The notes below the pieces were generated by a model, which worked only from the letters and a program-made list of their open reading frames with translations, made no database searches and had not been told where the DNA came from. Below are positions 41,515 through 54,438 of a stretch of 57,205 bases of DNA, piece after piece. Made by a program: the position numbers and the translations under genes. This DNA comes from Pseudomonadota bacterium (GTDB lineage Bacteria; Desulfobacterota; Desulfobacteria; Desulfobacterales; JBDRRP01): contig JBDRRP010000016.1 of assembly GCA_043825735.1 (NCBI GenBank), forward strand, positions 1-57,205, in the 5' to 3' direction. Position 1 is the first letter of the stretch, and the number at the start of each line of letters is the position of its first letter.

Positions 41515-41598
41515 TCGTTTTAAACGGCCGCTGCCCATCACCGTTGGTCGGCGGTGCACGGCGGCGGCCCCGGACCGCTCCATCCGTGAAGGGTGTCC

Positions 41599-43305
41599 AT
41601 GGCCAGGCGTTCTCATCGTGAAACAAGGCCACCATCGCCCGTTGAGCATGGCGCCGTCCGGAAACCGTGGGCGCGATGTCTGCGCATTGCATTGGTCTAT
41701 CCCAATGTCTATCGCCTCGGCATGTCCAACCTTGGTTTCCAGACGGTTTACCGACTGCTTAACGCCATGGAGGGGGTGCTGTGCGAGCGGGTTTTTCTGC
41801 CGGAGCCCTCGGCGGGAATGCCCCTCAGTGTCGAATCGTCACAACCGCTGGACCGGTTTCACGTTGTCGCGTTCAGCATTTCCTTTGAAAATGATTTCCC
41901 CGGGATGCTTCACATCCTGGAGCGTGCAGGCCTCCCCCTGGCGTCGGCGCAACGAGGGTCCCCCCACCCCCTTGTCGTCGCCGGGGGAGTCGCCTGCTGG
42001 CTGAACCCGGAGCCCATCGCCGCGTTTATCGACGTTTTCCTGCTGGGAGAAGCCGAAGTCTTCATCACCGATTTCGTCGCCGCCGTGGACACCACCGCGA
42101 CCCGCAGCGACCTGCTGCTGCGCATCGCACAAACCGTCCCCGGCGCCTACGTGCCTGGATTCTACGAGACGGCCTACCTTCCCCACGGCCCGATCGGTCG
42201 TTTCACACCCACAGCCGACGTTCCTGATCGGATTCGACCGCCGTGGGTTGCCGACCTGAACAATCACCCGACCCGGTCTGCCATTGTCTCCGACCAAAGC
42301 GCCTTCGATGACACCTATCTTGTTGAAATCGGACGGGGCTGCCCCCATGGATGCCGATTCTGCAGCGCAGGCTTTCTCTACCGCCCGCCACGTTTCAGGG
42401 ATACCGGCGTGCTGGCTGAAACCATATCCGCCGGTACGCAATGGACCCGCCGCATCGGGTTGGTGGGCGCGGCGGTCTCTGACCTGCCGGGGCTGGGCGC
42501 CCTGTGTCAATTGCCGTCGCTCTCGGGGCTGCGGCTGTCCTTCAGTTCGCTGCGGGCGGACGCCCTGACGCCGACGTTGATTGACATCCTCCGGAAAAAC
42601 CGTGTCAAGACCGCCACCATCGCCCCGGACGCCGGCAGCGAGCGAATGCGCCGCGTCATCAACAAGGGAATCACCGAGTCTGAGATTCTCACCGCGGCCG
42701 GCGATCTGGTCGCCGGCGGTATCCCCAATCTCAAGCTCTACTTCATGATCGGGCTTCCCACGGAAACCGCCGAAGATGTGACGGCCATCATCGATCTGTG
42801 CGCAAAGATCCGGGAGTGCTGGCTGGCGGCCAGCCGGCGTGTAGGCCACATCGGCACCATCCAGGTCAGCGTCAATAGCTTCGTTCCCAAACCGGTGACA
42901 CCATTTCAGTGGGTCGGAATGGATGACAAAAAAAATCTGAAGCAGAAAATCAAAATGCTGCGAGAAGCGCTGCAGCCCGTGCCCAATGTCCGTTTGAAGG
43001 TGGAAAGCCTGAACGAATCAGTGATCCAGGCCATACTCTCCCGGGGTGATCGTCGTTTGTCTCACGTTTTACGCCGCATCAGCGCCGGCACACCCTGGGC
43101 GTCCGCGTTGAGCGCCGAAGGGCTCGATTCAGACTTCTATGCCACTCGGCAGCGTCCCACCGATGAATTACTGCCATGGCACTTCATCGATCACGGGCTC
43201 AGTTCCGGTTTTTTGCAGCACGAATACACCCGCGCGCTGTCGGCCAAACCCAGCCCCCCCTGCCCCATAGTCAACTGTAGCCGCTGCGGCGTCTGCCCGT
43301 CATAG
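41599..43305 (+). CDS. Radical SAM protein with N-terminal B12-binding-like domain
   Basis: YPNVYRLGMSNLG, EIGRGCPHGCRFC (CxxxCxxC), YFMIGLP and a C-terminal Cys cluster CSRCGVC. Confidence 0.85.
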   Translation: MARRSHRETRPPSPVEHGAVRKPWARCLRIALVYPNVYRLGMSNLGFQTVYRLLNAMEGVLCERVFLPEPSAGMPLSVESSQPLDRFHVVAFSISFENDFPGMLHILERAGLPLASAQRGSPHPLVVAGGVACWLNPEPIAAFIDVFLLGEAEVFITDFVAAVDTTATRSDLLLRIAQTVPGAYVPGFYETAYLPHGPIGRFTPTADVPDRIRPPWVADLNNHPTRSAIVSDQSAFDDTYLVEIGRGCPHGCRFCSAGFLYRPPRFRDTGVLAETISAGTQWTRRIGLVGAAVSDLPGLGALCQLPSLSGLRLSFSSLRADALTPTLIDILRKNRVKTATIAPDAGSERMRRVINKGITESEILTAAGDLVAGGIPNLKLYFMIGLPTETAEDVTAIIDLCAKIRECWLAASRRVGHIGTIQVSVNSFVPKPVTPFQWVGMDDKKNLKQKIKMLREALQPVPNVRLKVESLNESVIQAILSRGDRRLSHVLRRISAGTPWASALSAEGLDSDFYATRQRPTDELLPWHFIDHGLSSGFLQHEYTRALSAKPSPPCPIVNCSRCGVCPS

Positions 43306-43581: not shown

Positions 43582-44025
43582 ATGACATCGAACACGCATC
43601 TCCAGATCGCGTATCGGCTGGCCATAGTGTTATTGGTGATAGGTGTTTTGAGCTACGCTGCATTTCCTGCCAAAGGGCCTGACACACCGGTCCGTCTCGT
43701 CTACAAAACCATGGCCGGAAAAGTTTACTTCGACCATAAAACCCACTTGGCCGATAAGGGATACGGCCTTGCCTGCCTCGACTGTCATCACCACCCGACC
43801 GATGACAGTGACGCGGCGCTTCAGATCGCCAATTGCGGCACGTGCCACGCCAAACCGGAACAAATGGAAAACACTGCCAAAGCCTGCAACGAATGCCACG
43901 ACAGCAGTGACTACGATCTCTCGGAAATGCTGGTCAGAGCCGACGCTTTTCACAACCAGTGTATCAGCTGCCACAAGGAATTCGGCAAAGGTCCGGCCGC
44001 TTGCGCCGGGTGCCACGTACTTTAA
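43582..44025 (+). CDS. Class III (cytochrome c3-type) multiheme cytochrome with 5 CxxCH motifs
   Basis: N-terminal hydrophobic segment; VYFDHKTH; CLDCH, CGTCH, CNECH, CISCH and CAGCH. Confidence 0.88.
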   Translation: MTSNTHLQIAYRLAIVLLVIGVLSYAAFPAKGPDTPVRLVYKTMAGKVYFDHKTHLADKGYGLACLDCHHHPTDDSDAALQIANCGTCHAKPEQMENTAKACNECHDSSDYDLSEMLVRADAFHNQCISCHKEFGKGPAACAGCHVL

Positions 44026-44093
44026 TCCTGATCCGCTCTGGTTGAAACGATGGCGACACCTGTGAAACGCCGTAACCCCGTAAAGGTCATGCC

Positions 44094-45377
44094 ATGATGA
44101 AGAAACCTTTTTTTGGATGGTCCAAGCCACAATTTCCCCTGCTGCGCCCCACCGAGACCCTTGCACCGGTCCTGCGTATCGACGCCCCCAAGCACCTTTC
44201 CCTGTATTGTGAGCTGTCGGCAGGCGATGACGCCGCGCCACCGCTTAAAAAGGGGGATGCCGTGACATCGGGGCAGCGCCTGCTGGCCGGCGGCTCACCG
44301 GCGGCTTATGTGATTGCACCGGCGGGCGGCACCATCACCGCAGTGACTGCGGTCGCCGGCGATTTTGGGCGGCGCTTTGTGCAAGTGGAGATCGAAACGG
44401 ATGTTGCGGCAGCCTCAGATGACCAGTTCGCCGCCGCCGTCGAAGCGCTCACCATAAATACCCTGACTGGTTTTCTTCAGCAGGTCCCGGGCAAACCGCC
44501 GCTATCGCTGTTGAGCGACCCGCAGCACCCCATCAAGACCATCGTTGTCTCCGGCGTGGATGAAGACCTTCTGTGCGCCACCCGGCAGTATATTATCGGC
44601 GAAAAACCCGAATACATCGAAAAAGGCGTGGCCGTGCTGAAAACGGCGACCGGCGTCACCGACATCGTTCTGGTCGTTGCCCGCGATACCATCCAGTCCA
44701 TCGGCGGCATGGGGGTCAGGGCGGTTTCTGTCCCCGGCGCCTACCCCGCCGGGCTGCCGCAGCTGATGATCAAAAGTGCCCTTGGCGTCGAATTGCCGGC
44801 CGGCAGCCGCCCTGAGGAAATGGGGATCTGCATCATCAGCGTCGAAGCGGTGGCCGCCATCGGGCAGGCATTCGCGGAAAAACGGATCCCGACGCGCAAG
44901 ACCTTTTCGCTTATCAACAAAGCCGGCGGGGTCCGAATGGTAGAGGCCCCCATCGGCACCCCCATCGGCGACGTCTTGGCGGCCGGCGGCATCACGGTCA
45001 ACGACCAGGATCGCATCATACTGGGCGGGCCCATGCGCGGCAGCGCGGTGTGGTCCCTGGCAGCGTCCATCATGGCCGACACCGACGCCCTGATGGTGCA
45101 GGATCGACAGGATCTGCCGGTCATTTCATCCTATCCCTGCATCAACTGTGGAGACTGCATCGGCGTGTGCCCGGCGCACATTCCCGTCAGTATGCTGGTC
45201 CGGTTCCTGGAGGCCGGACAATACCAGGATGCCGTCGACGCCTACGATCTGCTTTCCTGCGTGGAATGCGGTCTGTGCAGCTTCTACTGTGTCGCCCAGA
45301 TTCCCATCTTCCAGTATATCCGTCTGGCGAAATACGAAATTGCACGCATTCAGCAGATGGAGGAAGCCAATGTTTAG
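44094..45377 (+). CDS. rnfC: RnfC-like subunit with degenerate NADH/FMN motifs
   Basis: KKGDAVTSGQ, YPAG, SLBB segment (PIGTPI...GGPMRG) and two 4Fe-4S motifs CINCGDC...CP and CVECGLC; operon position. Confidence 0.85.
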   Translation: MMKKPFFGWSKPQFPLLRPTETLAPVLRIDAPKHLSLYCELSAGDDAAPPLKKGDAVTSGQRLLAGGSPAAYVIAPAGGTITAVTAVAGDFGRRFVQVEIETDVAAASDDQFAAAVEALTINTLTGFLQQVPGKPPLSLLSDPQHPIKTIVVSGVDEDLLCATRQYIIGEKPEYIEKGVAVLKTATGVTDIVLVVARDTIQSIGGMGVRAVSVPGAYPAGLPQLMIKSALGVELPAGSRPEEMGICIISVEAVAAIGQAFAEKRIPTRKTFSLINKAGGVRMVEAPIGTPIGDVLAAGGITVNDQDRIILGGPMRGSAVWSLAASIMADTDALMVQDRQDLPVISSYPCINCGDCIGVCPAHIPVSMLVRFLEAGQYQDAVDAYDLLSCVECGLCSFYCVAQIPIFQYIRLAKYEIARIQQMEEANV

Positions 45378-46332
45378 CTCTCAGAAGAAATTCGTCGTCT
45401 CGCACGCCCCCTTCTGGCACTGCGGCAGCAACCTGCGGGAGAGAAGCTATACGACGCTGCTGGCCACACTGCCGGCGGTCGTCTTCGGCATCCTCCAATA
45501 CGGCATTCCCGCCATCGCAGTCGTCTGCCTTAGCGTGTCCACGGCCATTTTATGGGAAACGCTGATGAACCGCCTCATGAAGCGCCCGGATACCGTCGGT
45601 GACGGCAATGCGGCGCTGATCGGCATCGTCCTGGCCATGCTCATGCCGGCGCCGACCCCCTGGTGGATCGTCATCACCGGCACCTTCATCGCCATCGTCA
45701 TCGCCAAACAGATCTTCGGCGGCATCGGCAGCAACCCCTTTAACCCGGCCGCGCTGGCCATGGCCATTCTCATGGTGAGCTGGGCGGACTTCTTCGATTT
45801 CGATCAGGCGCTGCGAAACTATGATTTCGGGTTTATCGCCGCCTACCCGCTGGCCACCCTGAAACACTTCGGCGTAGATGCCATCAACGGATACAGCCTC
45901 CGGGGCCTTCTCCTGGGCCAGCAGGCCGGTGGCATCGGGGCGACATTCGGCATCGGGCTGATCGTCGGCGGACTGTATCTCATCGCCCGCGGATTCATCC
46001 GTCTGGAAATCGCCTTCTCCTATCTGGCCGGTGTTTTTATCACCGCGATGCTGTTCAACATTACAAACCCGGCCGCCTATGCCGGGCCGTTCTTTCATAT
46101 CTTTACCGGATACACCCTGATCGCCGCCTTTTTTCTCATGCCGGAAGATTCCTCGTCCCCGGTCAACCCGGTACCCATGATTCTATATGGGCTGCTCGGC
46201 GGCATCATGACCGTCTTGATTCGCAACATCGGCGCCTATGTCGACGGCGCCATTTTCGCCGTTCTGGTGGCCAATCTGGTGAATCCCCTGCTCGACAAGA
46301 TTCGCCCCAAAGCGCTGGGAAAGGTGATGTGA
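45370..46332 (+). CDS. rnfD: RnfD membrane subunit
   Basis: SHAPF, AKQIFGGIGSNPFNPA and FAVLVAN motifs. Confidence 0.9.
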   Translation: MFSSQKKFVVSHAPFWHCGSNLRERSYTTLLATLPAVVFGILQYGIPAIAVVCLSVSTAILWETLMNRLMKRPDTVGDGNAALIGIVLAMLMPAPTPWWIVITGTFIAIVIAKQIFGGIGSNPFNPAALAMAILMVSWADFFDFDQALRNYDFGFIAAYPLATLKHFGVDAINGYSLRGLLLGQQAGGIGATFGIGLIVGGLYLIARGFIRLEIAFSYLAGVFITAMLFNITNPAAYAGPFFHIFTGYTLIAAFFLMPEDSSSPVNPVPMILYGLLGGIMTVLIRNIGAYVDGAIFAVLVANLVNPLLDKIRPKALGKVM

Positions 46333-46333
46333 C

Positions 46334-46927
46334 ATGCGTGAGATGATCAATATGGTAGTGGTCCTGACCGTGCTGAGCGCCTTTTCCGGAGGATTGCTGG
46401 CGGCGCTGAAAGACGGCACCAAGGAACGCATCGAAAACCAGGAATTGAGCCTCGTTAAAGGCCCTGCCGTCATGAATCTGCTCAAGGGGGCCAGCAACGA
46501 TCCGTTGACGGATCGTTTCAAGATGAAGGTCGGTGAGGCCGAGAAAAGCTTCTTCGTGGGTGTATTCGACGGGAAACCCAACTCCGTCGCCTTCGAAGTC
46601 CCCGGAAAGGGGTTTGCCGACAACATCGGGCTGATGGTGGGGTTTAACGTCGATACCGACAAACTCATCGGCGTCAATGTCACCACTATCAAGGACACCC
46701 CCGGACTTGGCGCCAATGCCAAGGAAGATCCGAAATGGGCGGCCCAGTTCAGCGGCAAATCCGTTGATGAAACGTTTAAAGTCACTGCTGACGGCGGTGA
46801 TATCAACGCCATCAGCGGCGCCACCATCACCTCCCAGGGTGTTTGCAACGCGGCCAACGATGCCGCGAATATCTATAAGGAAATCAAACCGGAGTTGCTC
46901 ACCAAACTCAAGGAAGTCAAACCATAG
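46334..46927 (+). CDS. rnfG: RnfG FMN-binding subunit
   Basis: N-terminal TM, DTPGLG and ISGATITS flavinylation motif. Confidence 0.92.
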   Translation: MREMINMVVVLTVLSAFSGGLLAALKDGTKERIENQELSLVKGPAVMNLLKGASNDPLTDRFKMKVGEAEKSFFVGVFDGKPNSVAFEVPGKGFADNIGLMVGFNVDTDKLIGVNVTTIKDTPGLGANAKEDPKWAAQFSGKSVDETFKVTADGGDINAISGATITSQGVCNAANDAANIYKEIKPELLTKLKEVKP

Positions 46928-46939
46928 GGAGTTTTTCCG

Positions 46940-47554
46940 ATGGCCAAATCGCTTACGCAAGAGTTCGTTAAAGGCCTGTGGCAGGAAATTCCACCGTTTC
47001 GACTGGTGCTGGGCCTGTGCCCGACGCTCGGTGTGACCACCAGCATGAAAAACGGCATCGGTATGGGTGTGGCAACAGCCTTCGTTCTGATTTGCGGCAA
47101 CATCCTGGTGTCCATGCTACGCAAGATTATCCCTTCGAAGGTGCGCATCGCCTGCTATATCATTATCATCGCCACTTTCGTCATCGTCGTGGAACTGCTC
47201 ATGCAGGCATTCGCCTACGAATTGTTCCAGGCCCTGGGGGTATTTATCCCGCTCATCGTCGTCAACTGCATCCTGCTCGGCCGAGCGGAAGCTTTTGCAT
47301 CCAAAAACGGGATACTGCCTTCCTTTGCCGACGGGTTGGGTATTGGCATCGGTTTCACCTTGTCACTGGCAACACTGGGCGGCATTCGCGAAATCATCGG
47401 CAAGGGGACGCTGACCTTTTGGGGCGACCCTTTGTTCAACATTGCCCATGCCTTCCCCGGCTTTCAGCCCTTCGGGTTTGCGGTCCAGGCACCGGGCGCC
47501 TTTATTTTCCTTGGCCTCATGCTCTGCTTTATGAACCTCGCGGGCAGCAAATAG
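46940..47554 (+). CDS. rnfE: RnfE membrane subunit
   Basis: LGLCPTLGVT, PLIVVNCILLGRAE and APGAF motifs. Confidence 0.93.
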   Translation: MAKSLTQEFVKGLWQEIPPFRLVLGLCPTLGVTTSMKNGIGMGVATAFVLICGNILVSMLRKIIPSKVRIACYIIIIATFVIVVELLMQAFAYELFQALGVFIPLIVVNCILLGRAEAFASKNGILPSFADGLGIGIGFTLSLATLGGIREIIGKGTLTFWGDPLFNIAHAFPGFQPFGFAVQAPGAFIFLGLMLCFMNLAGSK

Positions 47555-47564
47555 GAGATAACCG

Positions 47565-48140
47565 ATGGGCGATCTGATCGTTCTTGCCATCAGCTGTATT
47601 TTTGTCAACAATATCCTTTTGGCGCAGTTTCTGGGCAACTGCCCCTTTTTAGGCACGTCTAAAAAGATGGAAACCGCCATTGGCATGGCCATGGCGGTCA
47701 TCTTTGTTCTTGTGATGGCCGGCGTCATCACCTGGCTGGTCCAGTATTATCTGTTGGTCCCCTTCGGCCTGGTCTACCTTCGCACCATCGCCTTTATCCT
47801 CGTGATCGCTGCGCTGGTGCAGTTTGTCGAAATGTTTTTAAAAAAAAGCATTCCTGCATTATATGCCGGCCTGGGCATTTTTCTGCCGCTGATTACGACC
47901 AACTGCGCCGTCATGGGCGTTTGCGTCATCAACATCGACAAAGAATACACCTTCATCCAAACGGTTGTCACATCGTTTACTTACGCGGCCGGTTTTGGCC
48001 TTGCGCTGGTCCTGTTTGCCGGCGTGCGCGAACGGATCCTGCTGGCGCGCGTTCCCAAACCGCTTCAAGATACATCCATCGCACTGGTCACGGCAGGTAT
48101 TTTGTCCCTGACCTTTTTCGCCTTTCGCGGCATGGTCTGA
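47565..48140 (+). CDS. rnfA: RnfA membrane subunit
   Basis: NNILLAQFLGNCP, LPLITTNCAVMG and GVRER motifs. Confidence 0.93.
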   Translation: MGDLIVLAISCIFVNNILLAQFLGNCPFLGTSKKMETAIGMAMAVIFVLVMAGVITWLVQYYLLVPFGLVYLRTIAFILVIAALVQFVEMFLKKSIPALYAGLGIFLPLITTNCAVMGVCVINIDKEYTFIQTVVTSFTYAAGFGLALVLFAGVRERILLARVPKPLQDTSIALVTAGILSLTFFAFRGMV

Positions 48141-48271
48141 TCCGTCGGACTTTCACAGTGAAAGGACCAGTGGAGACGCACCGGAGCAGTAACGAGATCG
48201 TCCTGCGGCTGAACGAACTACAGCCGGCCGCTTTCCGGGTCTAACCGTTTGCCATCTTCGGAGGTTGCATC

Positions 48272-50359
48272 GTGTTATCAGCCATCATCGTCCTCCTCAG
48301 CATCGGCGCTACCTGTGGCATTATCCTGAGTGTGGCTTCCAAAGTCTTCTACGTCTGGGAAGACCCGCGCATCGCTGAAATCGAAGGCAATCTCGCCGGC
48401 GCCAACTGCGGCGGGTGCGGGTTCGCCGGCTGCTCGGCCGCCGCGGTGGCAGTCGTGGGCGGCAAGGCAACGCCCAGTGTGTGCGTAGTGGCCGGCCCTG
48501 AAACCGCCGTCGCCGTCGCCGGAATCATGGGCATCGATCCGGGCACTGCCGAACCGCTCAAATCGAAAAATTTCTGCGACGGCGGAGATCGCGCCGAAAA
48601 CCGATTCCATTATATGGGTGTTTCCACCTGCAACGCCCTGGCCGCTTTCTACGGCGGCAAACGGGTGTGCCATGTGGGTTGCCTTGGCCAAGGTGACTGC
48701 GTGCGCTCCTGCAAGTTCAACGCGATCCACATGGGTCCCAACGGTTTTCCGGTGGTCGACGAGACGGCCTGTGTCGGCTGCGGGGCCTGCGAAAAGGCGT
48801 GTCCCAAGCACATCCTCACCGTCCGGACCATGAGCCAGCGGCTGCTGCATTTCAACCAGACCGAAGATGCGCTGGCTCCGTGTGCGCAAACGTGCCCGGC
48901 CGAAATCGACATTCCCCGCTATATCGCCCAGATCCATGACGGCGACTACGCCGGCGCAGTGCACACCATCCGAGAACGAAACCCGCTGCTGCTGGCCTGC
49001 GGACGCGTGTGCCCGCATCCCTGCGAGAATTTCTGCCGTCGCGGCATCGAAGACGATGCGGTTTCCATCAACCAGTTGAAACGGTTTGTGGCCGATTACG
49101 AAATGAAGTCGGGCGCCCGCCTGCCGGTGGCGTGTGCGCCGGATACCGGCAAAAAGGTAGCCGTCGTTGGCGGCGGCCCCGCCGGTTTGAGTTGTGCCTT
49201 CTTTCTGCGGCGCCTGGGTCATGCGGTGACCATTTTCGATATGATGCCCGAGCTCGGCGGTATGATCCGCTACGGCATTCCCGAATACCGCCTGCCCAAG
49301 GCCGTCCTCAAGTGGGAGACCGACGGGATACTCAACCTGGGCATTGACGCAAAGACCGGTGTGCGCTTTGGCAAAGACGTCACCGTCGCCTCGCTGCAGG
49401 AAGACGGATACGATGCCATCTTCCTCGGCATCGGCGCCTGGAAAGACTACAGCTTGAACGTGCCGGGCGAAGATCTTGACGGCTGCTACACGGGCATCAA
49501 CTTTCTCACCCGCTTTGCCGAAGACCAGCAGTCTGCAGCCCCCAAGGGCTTTCCCATCGGCAAAAAATGCGCGGTGATCGGCGGCGGCAACACTGCCATC
49601 GACTGCGTGCGGACGCTGGTGCGGTTGGGCGCCGATGAGGTCAATCTGGTGTACCGGCGCACCCGAACCGAAATGCCGGCCAACGATGTCGAAATCGTGG
49701 CGGCTGAACACGAAGGGATCAGATTCACGTTTCTGGCAGCTCCCGTGCGGGTCGTCGGCGATGACAACGGCAAGGTCACCGGGCTTGAAATCCAGATGAT
49801 GGCTCTCGGGGAGCCGGACGCCAGTGGCCGCCGCCGACCCGTTCCCGTCGAAGGTTCGGAGGTTGTCATTGAAGCCGACATGGTCGTCACCGCCATCGGC
49901 CAGGGGCCCGATGTCTCCTTCAAAAACGCCGACCGCAAGCTTGGCGAACTTCAGATCACCCGGTGGAATACCATCGACAATGATCCTGAAATACTTCAGT
50001 CCAATATTCCCTTCGTATTCACGGCAGGCGATGCCGCCACCGGCGCCAGCCTGGTCGTGGAGGCCATCGGCGGCGGTCGCCGGGCGGCGCGCTCCATCCA
50101 TCGCTTTCTCATGGAAGAGGAAGTAACGCCGGTCCCGCAATCGCTGCGAAAGAAACACATTCCCGAGTCGCTATTTGAAACGGTCCCGGGCGTTGAGAAA
50201 AAGACCAGGACCCCCATGCCGGAGATGCCGGTGGCCGAGCGGATCAAATCTTTTGATGAAGCCGATCTGGTCATCAGCGAAGATGCCGCCCGGCATGAAT
50301 CCGGCCGGTGCCTCTCCTGCTGCCGGATCTGCTACAACCCCGACACAAAAGCCGCATAA
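48272..50359 (+). CDS. rnfB: RnfB fused to a GltD/NfnB-like FAD/NAD(P)H oxidoreductase
   Basis: RnfB part: TM, GANCGGCG, two ferredoxin motifs. Then PCAQTCP, CGRVCPHPCE..C, GGGPAG, YGIPEYRLP, GGGNTAID, YRR and AGD. GTG start with SD GGAGG. Confidence 0.88.
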   Translation: MLSAIIVLLSIGATCGIILSVASKVFYVWEDPRIAEIEGNLAGANCGGCGFAGCSAAAVAVVGGKATPSVCVVAGPETAVAVAGIMGIDPGTAEPLKSKNFCDGGDRAENRFHYMGVSTCNALAAFYGGKRVCHVGCLGQGDCVRSCKFNAIHMGPNGFPVVDETACVGCGACEKACPKHILTVRTMSQRLLHFNQTEDALAPCAQTCPAEIDIPRYIAQIHDGDYAGAVHTIRERNPLLLACGRVCPHPCENFCRRGIEDDAVSINQLKRFVADYEMKSGARLPVACAPDTGKKVAVVGGGPAGLSCAFFLRRLGHAVTIFDMMPELGGMIRYGIPEYRLPKAVLKWETDGILNLGIDAKTGVRFGKDVTVASLQEDGYDAIFLGIGAWKDYSLNVPGEDLDGCYTGINFLTRFAEDQQSAAPKGFPIGKKCAVIGGGNTAIDCVRTLVRLGADEVNLVYRRTRTEMPANDVEIVAAEHEGIRFTFLAAPVRVVGDDNGKVTGLEIQMMALGEPDASGRRRPVPVEGSEVVIEADMVVTAIGQGPDVSFKNADRKLGELQITRWNTIDNDPEILQSNIPFVFTAGDAATGASLVVEAIGGGRRAARSIHRFLMEEEVTPVPQSLRKKHIPESLFETVPGVEKKTRTPMPEMPVAERIKSFDEADLVISEDAARHESGRCLSCCRICYNPDTKAA

Positions 50360-50362
50360 ATC

Positions 50363-50408
50363 ATAAATCAAGAGGCCGCCGACAACGCCGGCGGCCTCTT
50401 GATTTATA
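50363..50408. terminator. Hairpin terminator after rnfB (probably bidirectional)
   Basis: ATAAATCAAGAGGCCGCCG-acaacgc-CGGCGGCCTCTTGATTTAT. Confidence 0.8.
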
Positions 50409-52401: not shown

Positions 52402-54417
52402 TTACAGCAGGAACGGCACCATCAGAAGCGCCACAACGTTCAGGATCTTGATCATCGGGTTGACGGCCGGGCCGGCAGTATCTTTGTAGGGGTCGCCGAC
52501 GGTGTCGCCGGTAACCGCAGCTTTATGGGCATCGGAGCCCTTGCCACCCAGGTTGCCGTCTTCGATGTATTTCTTGGCGTTGTCCCATGCGGCACCACCG
52601 GTGGTCATGGACAGGGCCACGAACACGCCGGTAACGATGGAGCCGATGAGCAGACCACCCAGCGCCACCGGGCCCAGAATGAAGCCCACCACCAGCGGAG
52701 CGATGACCGGCAGCAGCGCCGGGACCATCATCTCTTTGAGGGCGAACTTGGTGACGATGTCCACACAGGCCGCGTAGTCGGGCTTGCCGGTGCCTTCCAT
52801 GATGCCCGGGATTTCGCGGAACTGACGACGCACTTCCTCGACCACCGCGGCGCCGGCGTTACCGACCGCCTTCATGGCGATGGAGGCGAACAGGTAGGGC
52901 AGCAGGCCGCCGATGAAAAGGCCAAGGATGACATTGACGTCGGACAGGTCAAAACGCATGGCGACCACATCTTTACCGCTCTGGATGTTGAACTCCTGCA
53001 CGTAGGCGGCAAAAAGCACCAGCGCTGCGAGACCGGCGGAACCGATGGCGTAGCCCTTGGTGACGGCCTTGGTGGTGTTGCCGACCGCGTCCAGCGGATC
53101 GGTGACGGCGCGGACCGATTCGTCCATACCGGCCATTTCGGCGATGCCGCCGGCATTGTCGGTGATGGGGCCGTAGGCGTCAATGGCGATGACCATACCG
53201 GTCATGGAAAGCATGGACATGGCGGCCATGGCGATGCCGTAAAGCCCGCCGAACTTGAAGGCCAGAAAAATGCTCAGACAGATGGCCAGAACGGGCGCGG
53301 CGGTCGCCTGCATGGAGACGGCCAGACCGGCGATGATGTTGGTGCCGTGGCCGGTGGTGGAAGCTTCGGCGACCGAAATCACTGGGCCGTACTTTCCGGT
53401 GTAGTACTCGGTGATGATGACGATGACGACCGTCAGCATCAGCCCGATCAGGGTGCAGTAGTAGATGTGCATCGGGCTCAAGTTGCCCACGCCCACCATC
53501 AGCTTCATGGTGGCATAGTAGAAGGCGATGGCGGCGATGATAGCCGAGCCGAACATGCCCTTATAGAGCGCGCCCATGATGTAGGTGCCGCCGCCCAGTC
53601 GCACCATAAACATGCCTGCGATGGAGGCGAAGATGGAAATGGCGCCCAGAACCAGCGGGAACTCGGTGGCCATAGGGGCCTTGGGGAACAGCAAATGGCC
53701 GATGAGCATGGCCGCAACGGCCGTTACCGCATAGGTCTCGAACAGGTCGGCCGCCATACCGGCGCAGTCGCCGACGTTGTCGCCCACGTTGTCGGCGATG
53801 ACGGCAGGGTTTCTCGGATCGTCTTCGGGAATACCGGCTTCGACCTTGCCTACCAGGTCGGCACCGACGTCGGCGCCCTTGGTGAAGATGCCGCCGCCGA
53901 GACGTGCGAAGATGGAGATGAGGCTGCCGCCGAAACCGAGGGCGACCAGCGCCATGATGTCATGGGTGAACATGTAGAAGCCGGCAACAGAGGTCAGCGC
54001 CAGGCCGGCAACCATCATACCGGTCACTGAACCGCCCTTGAATGCCAGGGACAGACCGGCGGCCAGGCCCTTTTTGGACGCTTCGGCCGTACGGACGTTG
54101 GCAATGACGGAAACCCGCATGCCGATGTAGCCCGCCATGAAAGAGGCCACTGCGCCCAGGGCAAAACCGATGGCGGTTTTGGGGCCCAGGGTGGCGAAGA
54201 TAACCCCAAAAATGATGATACCGGTGATGCCCATGGACTTCATCTGACGATTCAGGTAGGCAACCGCGCCTTCCTTGATCGCGCTGGCGATTTTCTGCAT
54301 CTTCTCATCGCCCGCGGGGGCACTTTTAACAATGGTTGCCATAATCAGCGCGTAGGCAACACCCACCAGACCGACCAGCGTACAAGTCAACGGAATGTTA
54401 TTCAATACTGCGTTCAT
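52402..54417 (-). CDS. hppA: Membrane-bound pyrophosphatase, K+-independent H+-PPase type
   Basis: [26 protein letters not shown] and [10 protein letters not shown] motifs. GNTTK carries the Lys that marks the K+-independent subfamily. Confidence 0.93.
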
Positions 54418-54438
54418 TCTCTCCTCCATAATGAAGCT

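What the first reader, a model, noticed from the sequence alone, without database searches (positions are those of the whole stretch)
43582..50359. Apparently rewired Rnf complex: cytochrome c3 and an NADP(H) module may replace the RnfC/RnfD NADH arm
Seen: RnfC lacks the usual FMN/NADH motifs, RnfD lacks its flavinylated Thr, and RnfB carries a whole GltD/NfnB-like flavoprotein. A 5-heme periplasmic cytochrome heads the operon. RnfG SGAT and all four RnfA/RnfE membrane Fe-S cysteines are intact. Known: canonical Rnf runs ferredoxin-RnfB-RnfA/E-RnfG-RnfD-RnfC-NAD+, and cytochrome-associated Rnf clusters exist in sulfate reducers and Methanosarcina. Inference: the coordinated losses suggest a different circuit, NADP(H)/ferredoxin to RnfB fusion to RnfA/E to RnfG to cytochrome c3. 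This would be a transmembrane electron conduit linking cytoplasmic NADP(H) to the periplasmic heme pool, with C/D mainly structural or ion-conducting. I cannot tell how much of this variant is already described.
Basis: partly seen in the sequence, partly recalled or inferred. Interest (0 to 1): 0.85.

Follow-up and report, generated by a model that had tools for sequence, protein, structure and literature searches.

The report
Cytochrome-linked Rnf2 complex of sulfate reducers
This is a real copy of a membrane redox pump variant ("Rnf2") described in sulfate-reducing bacteria since 2016 but never tested biochemically; the sequence suggests it passes electrons one way between cytoplasmic NADPH and a cytochrome docked on its outer face.

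Summary
The cluster is cytochrome c-rnfC-D-G-E-A-B. RnfC lacks its FMN/NADH motifs but keeps eight Fe-S cysteines. RnfD has Tyr159 at the flavinylated Thr. RnfB carries a GltD/StnC-type NADP(H) module.

The type is known. It is the Desulfobacula toluolica-type "Rnf2" (long RnfB, RnfC without NADH domain, small cytochrome; PMC5109826). A cytochrome-to-NAD(P)H/ferredoxin link is also already hypothesised (PMC4287179). This scan found it before in other genomes.

Not found in the papers searched:
(1) The whole RnfD FMN pocket is lost (Thr, Arg, Glu) in one clade, which includes 79 of 86 Desulfovibrionaceae Rnf loci examined.
(2) A model docks the cytochrome on RnfD's flavin linker (score 0.71, best control 0.00).

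The RnfC cysteines are invariant (232 of 232). In D. alaskensis the operon cytochrome is dispensable.

Best reading (0.5): a one-way NADP(H)-RnfB-RnfA/E-RnfG-cytochrome conduit with Na+ moving through RnfA/E, and RnfD as the cytochrome's scaffold.

The parts
43582..44025 (+). Class III cytochrome c, 147 aa, 5 CxxCH, conserved N-terminal hydrophobic helix followed by a PxR motif (probable uncleaved anchor)
   Evidence: predicted to dock on RnfD
44094..45377 (+). RnfC-type subunit, 427 aa; FMN/NADH motifs lost, two 4Fe-4S motifs kept
   Evidence: (below TIGR01945 cut-off, 175.6 vs 245.95)
45370..46332 (+). RnfD, 320 aa; Y159 at the FMN threonine, M131 and A191 at the conserved pocket Arg and Glu; riboflavin-site N125 kept, Asp changed to E259
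   Evidence: fold matches RnfD, Z 38.5, rmsd 2.1, 298 aligned to 8ahx_D
46334..46927 (+). RnfG, 197 aa, SGAT flavinylation motif (T164); passes the cut-off of the DVU2794-type RnfG model
   Evidence: (NF045876, 242.3 vs 205)
46940..47554 (+). RnfE, 204 aa; C27, C110 and Na+-site residues R69, L105, V108, N109, E117
47565..48140 (+). RnfA, 191 aa; C26, C114, Q86, T111, T112, N113 kept; F106 where A. woodii has Y105
48272..50359 (+). RnfB fused to a GltD/StnC-type FAD/NADP(H) module, 695 aa; K270, GGGNTA at 437, YRR at 461
50364..50406 (.). 20-bp hairpin directly after rnfB, likely terminator (listed on the - strand by the scan)
   Evidence: consensus match only

Best explanation
An Rnf2 (D. toluolica Tol2-type) complex that uses only half of the usual Rnf loop. 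NADP(H) reacts at the FAD of the module fused to RnfB. Electrons pass along the RnfB iron-sulfur chain to the membrane 2Fe-2S centre of RnfA/E and on to the FMN of RnfG. They then go to the operon's cytochrome, which is anchored on RnfD at the linker that once carried FMN, or to another periplasmic cytochrome c3. Na+ moves with the electron through RnfA/E. Charge separation is completed when other complexes (Qrc, Tmc, Hmc) carry the electrons back inward. The more likely direction in this heterotroph-type sulfate reducer is NADPH to periplasm, and it may be reversible. Shown from sequence: which cofactor motifs are present or absent. Modelled: cytochrome on RnfD. Inferred: NADP(H) specificity, the RnfG-to-haem step, direction and ion coupling.
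For: RnfD pocket residues change together: Arg131 in 79 of 80 canonical vs 0 of 232 clade loci; Thr/Ser159 in 80 of 80 vs 20 of 232; Glu191 in 79 of 80 vs 7 of 232. The same Thr-to-Tyr change in V. cholerae NqrB removes the FMN and disrupts electron flow (PMC12901251 passages). The other arm is intact: RnfA cysteines 206 of 206, RnfE 223 of 223, RnfG Thr/Ser 235 of 235, Na+-site residues kept. Constraint on C and D is relaxed: at 60-69% RnfA+E identity, RnfC identity is 0.28 in the clade vs 0.53 in canonical loci and RnfD 0.39 vs 0.56. A cytochrome lies directly before rnfC in 31 of 46 scorable clade loci and 0 of 50 canonical ones. D+G+cytochrome model: score 0.71, best of 3 controls 0.00 (mark reached by 116 of 157 solved complexes and 2 of 215 mismatched pairs; runs agree in at least 76% of contacts; partner pLDDT at least 73). 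The interface includes RnfD 143-167 and cytochrome 142-147, the last haem motif, and the score falls to 0.00 when RnfD is replaced. The RnfB module is closest to 9bov, 9n5u and StnC 8oh5, with Lys at the StnC K170 position in 88 of 100 fused RnfB. PMC5109826 and PMC11887813 (passages) note that Qrc-type complexes are abundant in Desulfobacteraceae without the usual periplasmic donors, which this conduit would explain.
Against: RnfC keeps both 4Fe-4S motifs in 232 of 232 loci. RnfD keeps an acid at 259 in 230 of 232 and N125 in 145 of 232, which suggests a working cytoplasmic redox chain. In D. alaskensis G20 the rnfCDGEABF genes matter for growth but the operon cytochrome dhcA does not, bar one experiment (PMC4215793); I could not retrieve that operon to confirm its class. 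15 of 46 scorable clade loci in the phylum sample have no adjacent cytochrome, including early-branching ones (deep nodes weakly supported). The model lists no confident RnfG residue at the interface, used my own alignments with non-covalent haems, and is not a measurement. A non-covalent flavin in RnfD cannot be excluded from sequence.
Confidence: 0.5

Rival explanations
1. The loop is kept but its ends are swapped. NADP(H) reacts at RnfB and a one-electron partner (ferredoxin, or an Hdr/DsrC-linked protein) reacts at RnfC's Fe-S clusters. The gap left by the RnfD FMN is bridged by a non-covalent flavin, by RnfG's own FMN entering the pocket, or by a haem.
For: RnfC cysteines are invariant and the riboflavin-site residues largely kept. 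rnfC and rnfD matter while dhcA does not in D. alaskensis. PMC10979944 proposes that an RnfG-like flavin samples the pocket of an unflavinylated RnfD-like protein in another complex. PMC5109826 calls for an RnfC partner other than NAD(H).
Against: The pocket Arg is replaced by Trp or another hydrophobic residue in 240 of 241 loci, Ser in 1, which suggests a filled pocket. N125 is often Cys or Ser in Desulfovibrionaceae (N in 34 of 108). The model places the cytochrome over the linker.
Confidence: 0.25
2. A branched enzyme. The conduit to the cytochrome exists, and RnfC clusters plus RnfD riboflavin form a separate short arm that passes electrons from RnfB to menaquinone, as riboflavin does to quinone in Nqr.
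For: It explains why both the RnfC clusters and the riboflavin site are kept when the link to RnfG is cut. Riboflavin reduces quinone directly in Nqr (PMC12174285).
Against: No quinone site was tested. The RnfB module has the non-bifurcating StnC-type Lys. This genome already has an Nqr, whose NqrA also keeps two such Cys motifs, so retention need not mean redox use.
Confidence: 0.15
3. An ordinary ferredoxin:NAD+ Rnf whose motifs have merely drifted.
For: All six subunits are present in the usual CDGEAB order and five pass or approach Rnf family cut-offs. Papers on Desulfovibrio assume this activity.
Against: The motifs are invariant in 80 of 80 canonical loci and absent in all 232 clade loci. 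RnfC falls below the TIGR01945 cut-off.
Confidence: 0.04

Closest known systems
Rnf2 / Desulfobacula toluolica Tol2-type Rnf of Desulfobacteraceae (PMC5109826, PMC11887813)
   Same: RnfB of about 700 aa with nucleotide-binding sites, RnfC without NADH domain, small (about 15 kDa) cytochrome in the cluster, near-universal in the group (93 of 101 genomes of the order have a close RnfD); like D. toluolica, this genome also has an Nqr.
   Different: No difference of kind found. The loss of the RnfD FMN site and cytochrome docking on RnfD are not in the passages I read; the Sci Adv supplement and the 2016 D. toluolica paper were not readable.
Desulfovibrio dhcA-rnfCDGEABF (D. alaskensis, D. gigas, D. 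piger)
   Same: Same gene order, same cytochrome N-terminal anchor, same clade in the RnfA+E tree, same C and D losses (79 of 86 family loci; named D. piger ATCC 29098 locus L157).
   Different: Usually 5-10 haems; RnfB is fused in 31 and short in 28 of 59 scorable loci. Published work treats it as a ferredoxin:NAD+ enzyme or groups it with Rnf1.
Canonical Rnf (A. woodii 9ERI, C. tetanomorphum 7ZC6, A. vinelandii 8AHX)
   Same: Six subunits, folds, RnfA/E cysteines and Na+ site, RnfG flavinylation motif, RnfC Fe-S motifs.
   Different: No RnfC FMN/NADH motifs, no RnfD FMN threonine, fused NADP(H) module, extra cytochrome.
Methanosarcina acetivorans Rnf with MmcA (PMC4023990)
   Same: Does not use NAD(H) at RnfC; RnfG proposed to hand electrons to an operon cytochrome c.
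   Different: Ferredoxin donor and methanophenazine acceptor. Its C and D motifs were not examined here.
StnC (8OH5), NfnA of 9N5U, NfnB (5JCA, 4YLF)
   Same: GltD-like FAD/NADP(H) fold of the RnfB extension.
   Different: Lys270 matches non-bifurcating StnC rather than the Glu of NfnB; no NfnA-type or StnAB partner in the operon.

Membership tests
Rnf2 (Tol2-type) | RnfB of about 700 aa with added nucleotide-binding module | tested here: met
   695 aa, Pyr_redox_2 and Fer4_20; feature from PMC5109826
Rnf2 (Tol2-type) | RnfC lacking the NADH-binding features | tested here: met
Rnf2 (Tol2-type) | Small cytochrome c gene in the cluster | tested here: met
   147 aa, 16 kDa, five CxxCH
Rnf2 (Tol2-type) | Direct orthology to the named D. 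toluolica or D. multivorans proteins | tested here: inconclusive
   Scans returned Desulfobacterales/Desulfobacteraceae genomes at 58-84% RnfD identity but no locus of those two species among the rows kept (80 of 521)
Canonical ferredoxin:NAD+ Rnf | Six subunits A, B, C, D, E, G | tested here: met
Canonical ferredoxin:NAD+ Rnf | RnfC FMN/NADH motifs | tested here: not met
   80 of 80 canonical vs 0 of 232 clade
Canonical ferredoxin:NAD+ Rnf | RnfD threonine for covalent FMN | tested here: not met
   Y159; pocket Arg and Glu also lost
Canonical ferredoxin:NAD+ Rnf | RnfD riboflavin-site Asn and Asp | tested here: inconclusive
   N125 kept; Asp changed to E259
Canonical ferredoxin:NAD+ Rnf | RnfG FMN threonine, RnfA/E cysteines and Na+-site residues | tested here: met
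   one change, A. woodii Y105 to F106, also common in canonical loci; ApbE present in the genome
Canonical ferredoxin:NAD+ Rnf | Ferredoxin:NAD+ activity with ion pumping | not testable with these tools
   needs biochemistry
Bifurcating NfnB | Glu ligand on the FAD-proximal 4Fe-4S cluster | tested here: not met
   K270 here; K in 88 and E in 8 of 100 fused RnfB
M. acetivorans Rnf-MmcA | Homology of cytochrome and C/D motif state | not tested
   no Methanosarcina locus was fetched

The most novel reading that the evidence does not exclude
Most Rnf complexes of sulfate reducers, including the Desulfovibrio ones modelled as ferredoxin:NAD+ pumps, are not NAD+ reductases. They are one-way Na+/electron conduits in which RnfD has turned from a flavin relay into the docking site for a seventh, cytochrome subunit. 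They would be the missing feed between cytoplasmic NADPH or ferredoxin and the periplasmic cytochrome c3 pool.
Probability: 0.4. Interest if true: 0.75.

Novelty: new member of a known kind. Interest (0 to 1): 0.45.

Why it matters
Rnf2 is in the core genome of Desulfobacteraceae and abundantly formed (PMC11887813), yet its reaction is unknown. The RnfD result narrows the options: the published return path through RnfD is cut at its first cofactor. The same holds for most Desulfovibrionaceae Rnf loci, so energy models that assign them ferredoxin:NAD+ activity may need revising. Existing Desulfovibrio mutants and a simple flavin-fluorescence gel make this directly testable.

Tried and rejected
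1) Inter-protein covariation (MI-APC, 168 paired RnfD/cytochrome sequences, Neff about 110): 0 of the top 30 pairs lay at the modelled interface; too shallow to decide. 2) Fetching the D. alaskensis operon with a published primer: 50 stretches, none titled D. alaskensis, so its class is inferred from gene order and family, not read. 3) The Sci Adv 2025 supplement (fig. S18 on Rnf2) was too large to read. Pereira et al. 2011 was not held under the id tried nor listed by search. Woehlbrand et al. 2016 was not listed. Any of these could mention RnfD. 4) Promoter scan gave chance-level counts, 5 vs 3.3 +/- 1.9; a recalled palindrome pattern gave 13 matches vs 15.3 expected. 5) Electron bifurcation at RnfB: rejected as unlikely because of the StnC-type Lys. 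6) Strict coupling of fusion, cytochrome and C/D loss: rejected. 7) A flavinylation-like pattern elsewhere in RnfD matched 5 of 232 clade loci, all outside the Thr column; 5 other loci keep Thr at the column without the usual context or pocket residues.
Full report
Anatomy. The region holds seven co-oriented genes: a 147-aa class III cytochrome c, rnfC, rnfD, rnfG, rnfE, rnfA and a 695-aa rnfB, followed by a 20-bp hairpin. The host is a dsrA-bearing sulfate reducer whose close relatives are titled Desulfobacterales. A PF03116 search found two RnfD/NqrB genes in the genome: this one and an Nqr operon on contig C40. ApbE, [NiFe] hydrogenases, five NrfD-type proteins and several class III cytochromes are present.

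Observation check. Against solved structures, RnfC has QQVP in place of the GxGGAxFP loop and SGVDEDLL in place of NGAECEPY, with both Fe-S motifs kept. RnfD Y159 aligns to A. woodii T156 and C. tetanomorphum T153, the flavinylated residues (PMC11889175 passages; PMC9588780 section 9). The RnfD model matches RnfD structures (Z 38.5, rmsd 2.1, 298 aligned). RnfA and RnfE keep the four cysteines and the Na+-site residues mapped in A. woodii, except Y105 to F. The RnfB extension best matches 9bov, 9n5u and StnC 8oh5, and has Lys270 where StnC has the K170 cluster ligand of its non-bifurcating NADPH module (PMC10482914 passages).

What is in print. PMC5109826 (passages) describes the D. toluolica Tol2-type Rnf2: RnfB of about 700 aa with nucleotide-binding sites, RnfC without the NADH domain, and a 15 kDa cytochrome in the cluster, with a different mode of action awaiting test. 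PMC11887813 (passages) puts Rnf2 in the Desulfobacteraceae core genome; its supplement could not be read. PMC4287179 (passages) states that the operon cytochrome is hypothesised to link the periplasmic cytochrome pool to cytoplasmic NAD(P)H/ferredoxin. PMC4023990 (passages) proposes RnfG-to-cytochrome transfer in M. acetivorans. I found no statement that RnfD of these complexes lacks its FMN site in ten searches (two were on other topics). The library lacks most subscription papers. I also read passages of PMC12174285, PMC10979944, PMC8238504, PMC4841214, PMC4215793, PMC2702500 and PMC12901251.

Co-occurrence. In a phylum sample, 123 of 301 genomes had an RnfD/NqrB match. I fetched 140 of the 148 listed places outside this genome; 8 high-scoring ones and 16 unlisted ones were left out. 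They were 30 Nqr and 110 Rnf loci: 53 with canonical RnfC, 47 with degenerate RnfC in CDGEAB order (called the clade here), 9 with degenerate RnfC but intact RnfD (picked by hand; GEABCD order where seen), and 1 without RnfC in view. A cytochrome lay directly before rnfC in 31 of 46 scorable clade loci, 0 of 50 canonical and 0 of 9 of the third kind; three canonical loci had a multihaem ORF elsewhere in the region (L076, L152, L154). RnfB was fused in 22 of 38 scorable clade loci and 0 of 47 canonical. In a Desulfovibrionaceae sample (78 of 121 genomes matched; 90 of 96 places examined), 79 of 86 Rnf loci were of the clade, 6 canonical and 1 unscorable; 73 of 78 had the cytochrome and 31 of 59 the fusion. 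The named D. piger ATCC 29098 locus L157 is of the clade, with short RnfB and a ten-haem cytochrome. A FastTree of RnfA+RnfE (169 loci) puts all 60 clade members in one group with support 1.0, apart from the third kind. So the C/D loss is one event. Fusion without cytochrome occurs in early branches and short RnfB in two nested groups, but the deep nodes are weak.

RnfD pocket. Over all loci after removing duplicates (80 canonical, 232 clade), Arg131 is kept in 79 vs 0, Thr/Ser159 in 80 vs 20 and Glu191 in 79 vs 7. Arg is mostly replaced by Trp or another hydrophobic residue. The riboflavin-side acid at 259 is kept in 230 of 232 and N125 in 145 of 232. RnfC keeps both Fe-S motifs in 232 of 232. 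Outside that domain C and D diverge faster than in canonical loci. The engineered V. cholerae NqrB-T236Y mutant, the same change, lacks the FMN and has disrupted electron flow (PMC12901251).

Complex model. RnfD, RnfG and the cytochrome were folded with four haems riding along. Score 0.71, best of 3 controls 0.00; the mark was reached by 116 of 157 solved complexes and 2 of 215 mismatched pairs, counts that hold only roughly here. Runs agree in at least 76% of contacts and the partner pLDDT is at least 73. The cytochrome's N-terminal helix (6-25) packs on RnfD 46-64. Its residues 32-53 and 142-147 touch RnfD 143-167, the linker that carries FMN and contacts RnfG in canonical Rnf. Replacing RnfD drops the score to 0.00, and no RnfG residue is listed. 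The model supports binding; it does not show it. The anchor with its PxR motif is found in 172 of 193 clade cytochromes, including Desulfovibrio ones.

Mechanism. The intact arm is RnfB-RnfA/E-RnfG. In A. woodii, Na+ moves with the electron through RnfA/E and RnfD only carries electrons (PMC11889175), so a half loop could still move Na+. With RnfD's FMN gone and a cytochrome modelled at that site, the simplest circuit is NADP(H) to periplasmic haem (0.5). By inference the outward step alone is electroneutral, and Qrc/Tmc-type complexes complete the charge separation. The main objections are the invariant RnfC clusters and the D. alaskensis fitness data, where rnfCDGEABF matter and dhcA does not (PMC4215793). 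Other cytochromes c3 could substitute for dhcA, but a retained loop with swapped ends (0.25) or a branch to menaquinone (0.15) remain open.

Verdict. A further member of a known but untested type. Earlier notes of this scan reached the same label on other genomes; they are not counted as support. The added value here is the full RnfD pocket loss, its extension to Desulfovibrionaceae, and a testable docking model. Interest 0.45.

Noticed in passing
L060, L062, L063, L067, L068 (rnfE; e.g. L060 5255-5581, - strand): In five genomes of one genus rnfE has an in-frame TGA exactly at the second 2Fe-2S cysteine, and the frame continues for 92 codons. This suggests a selenocysteine ligand of the membrane cluster. 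SECIS and Sec machinery were not checked; these split genes were left out of the RnfE cysteine count.
   Followed up: partly
L056, L057, L078, L080, L086, L099, L101, L102, L114: A second, separate Rnf variant (GEABCD order where seen): RnfC has lost the Gly loop but RnfD keeps its Thr, Arg and Glu; short RnfB, no cytochrome; its own clade in the RnfA+E tree.
   Followed up: partly
G000:C40 about 165346-171252 (L001): The genome's Nqr operon has an NqrA that still carries two CxxCxxCxxxC motifs, whereas V. cholerae NqrA has no cofactor.
   Followed up: no
L060, L094, L048, L119: In one short-RnfB subgroup the upstream tetrahaem cytochrome has a different N-terminus that looks like a cleavable signal peptide, possibly a separate acquisition.
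   Followed up: no
L016, L032, L033, L035, L043, L122: Fused-RnfB, cytochrome-less clade operons all sit behind a response regulator and a hybrid sensor kinase; five keep Thr at the RnfD column without the pocket Arg or Glu.
   Followed up: partly
L076, L081, L097, L103, L105, L107: Canonical-C loci with long RnfA ORFs (about 310-340 aa) whose RnfE appears to lack the second Fe-S cysteine.
   Followed up: no
G000, several contigs: The genome has 18 Fer4_20 matches, many in GltD-like proteins of about 700 aa or more, so this NADP(H) module is used repeatedly.
   Followed up: no
window 41593-43305 and 52402-54429: Neighbours: a TIGR03960-like B12 radical SAM gene upstream and an ORF that looks like a membrane pyrophosphatase downstream (recognised from memory, no search run).
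   Followed up: no
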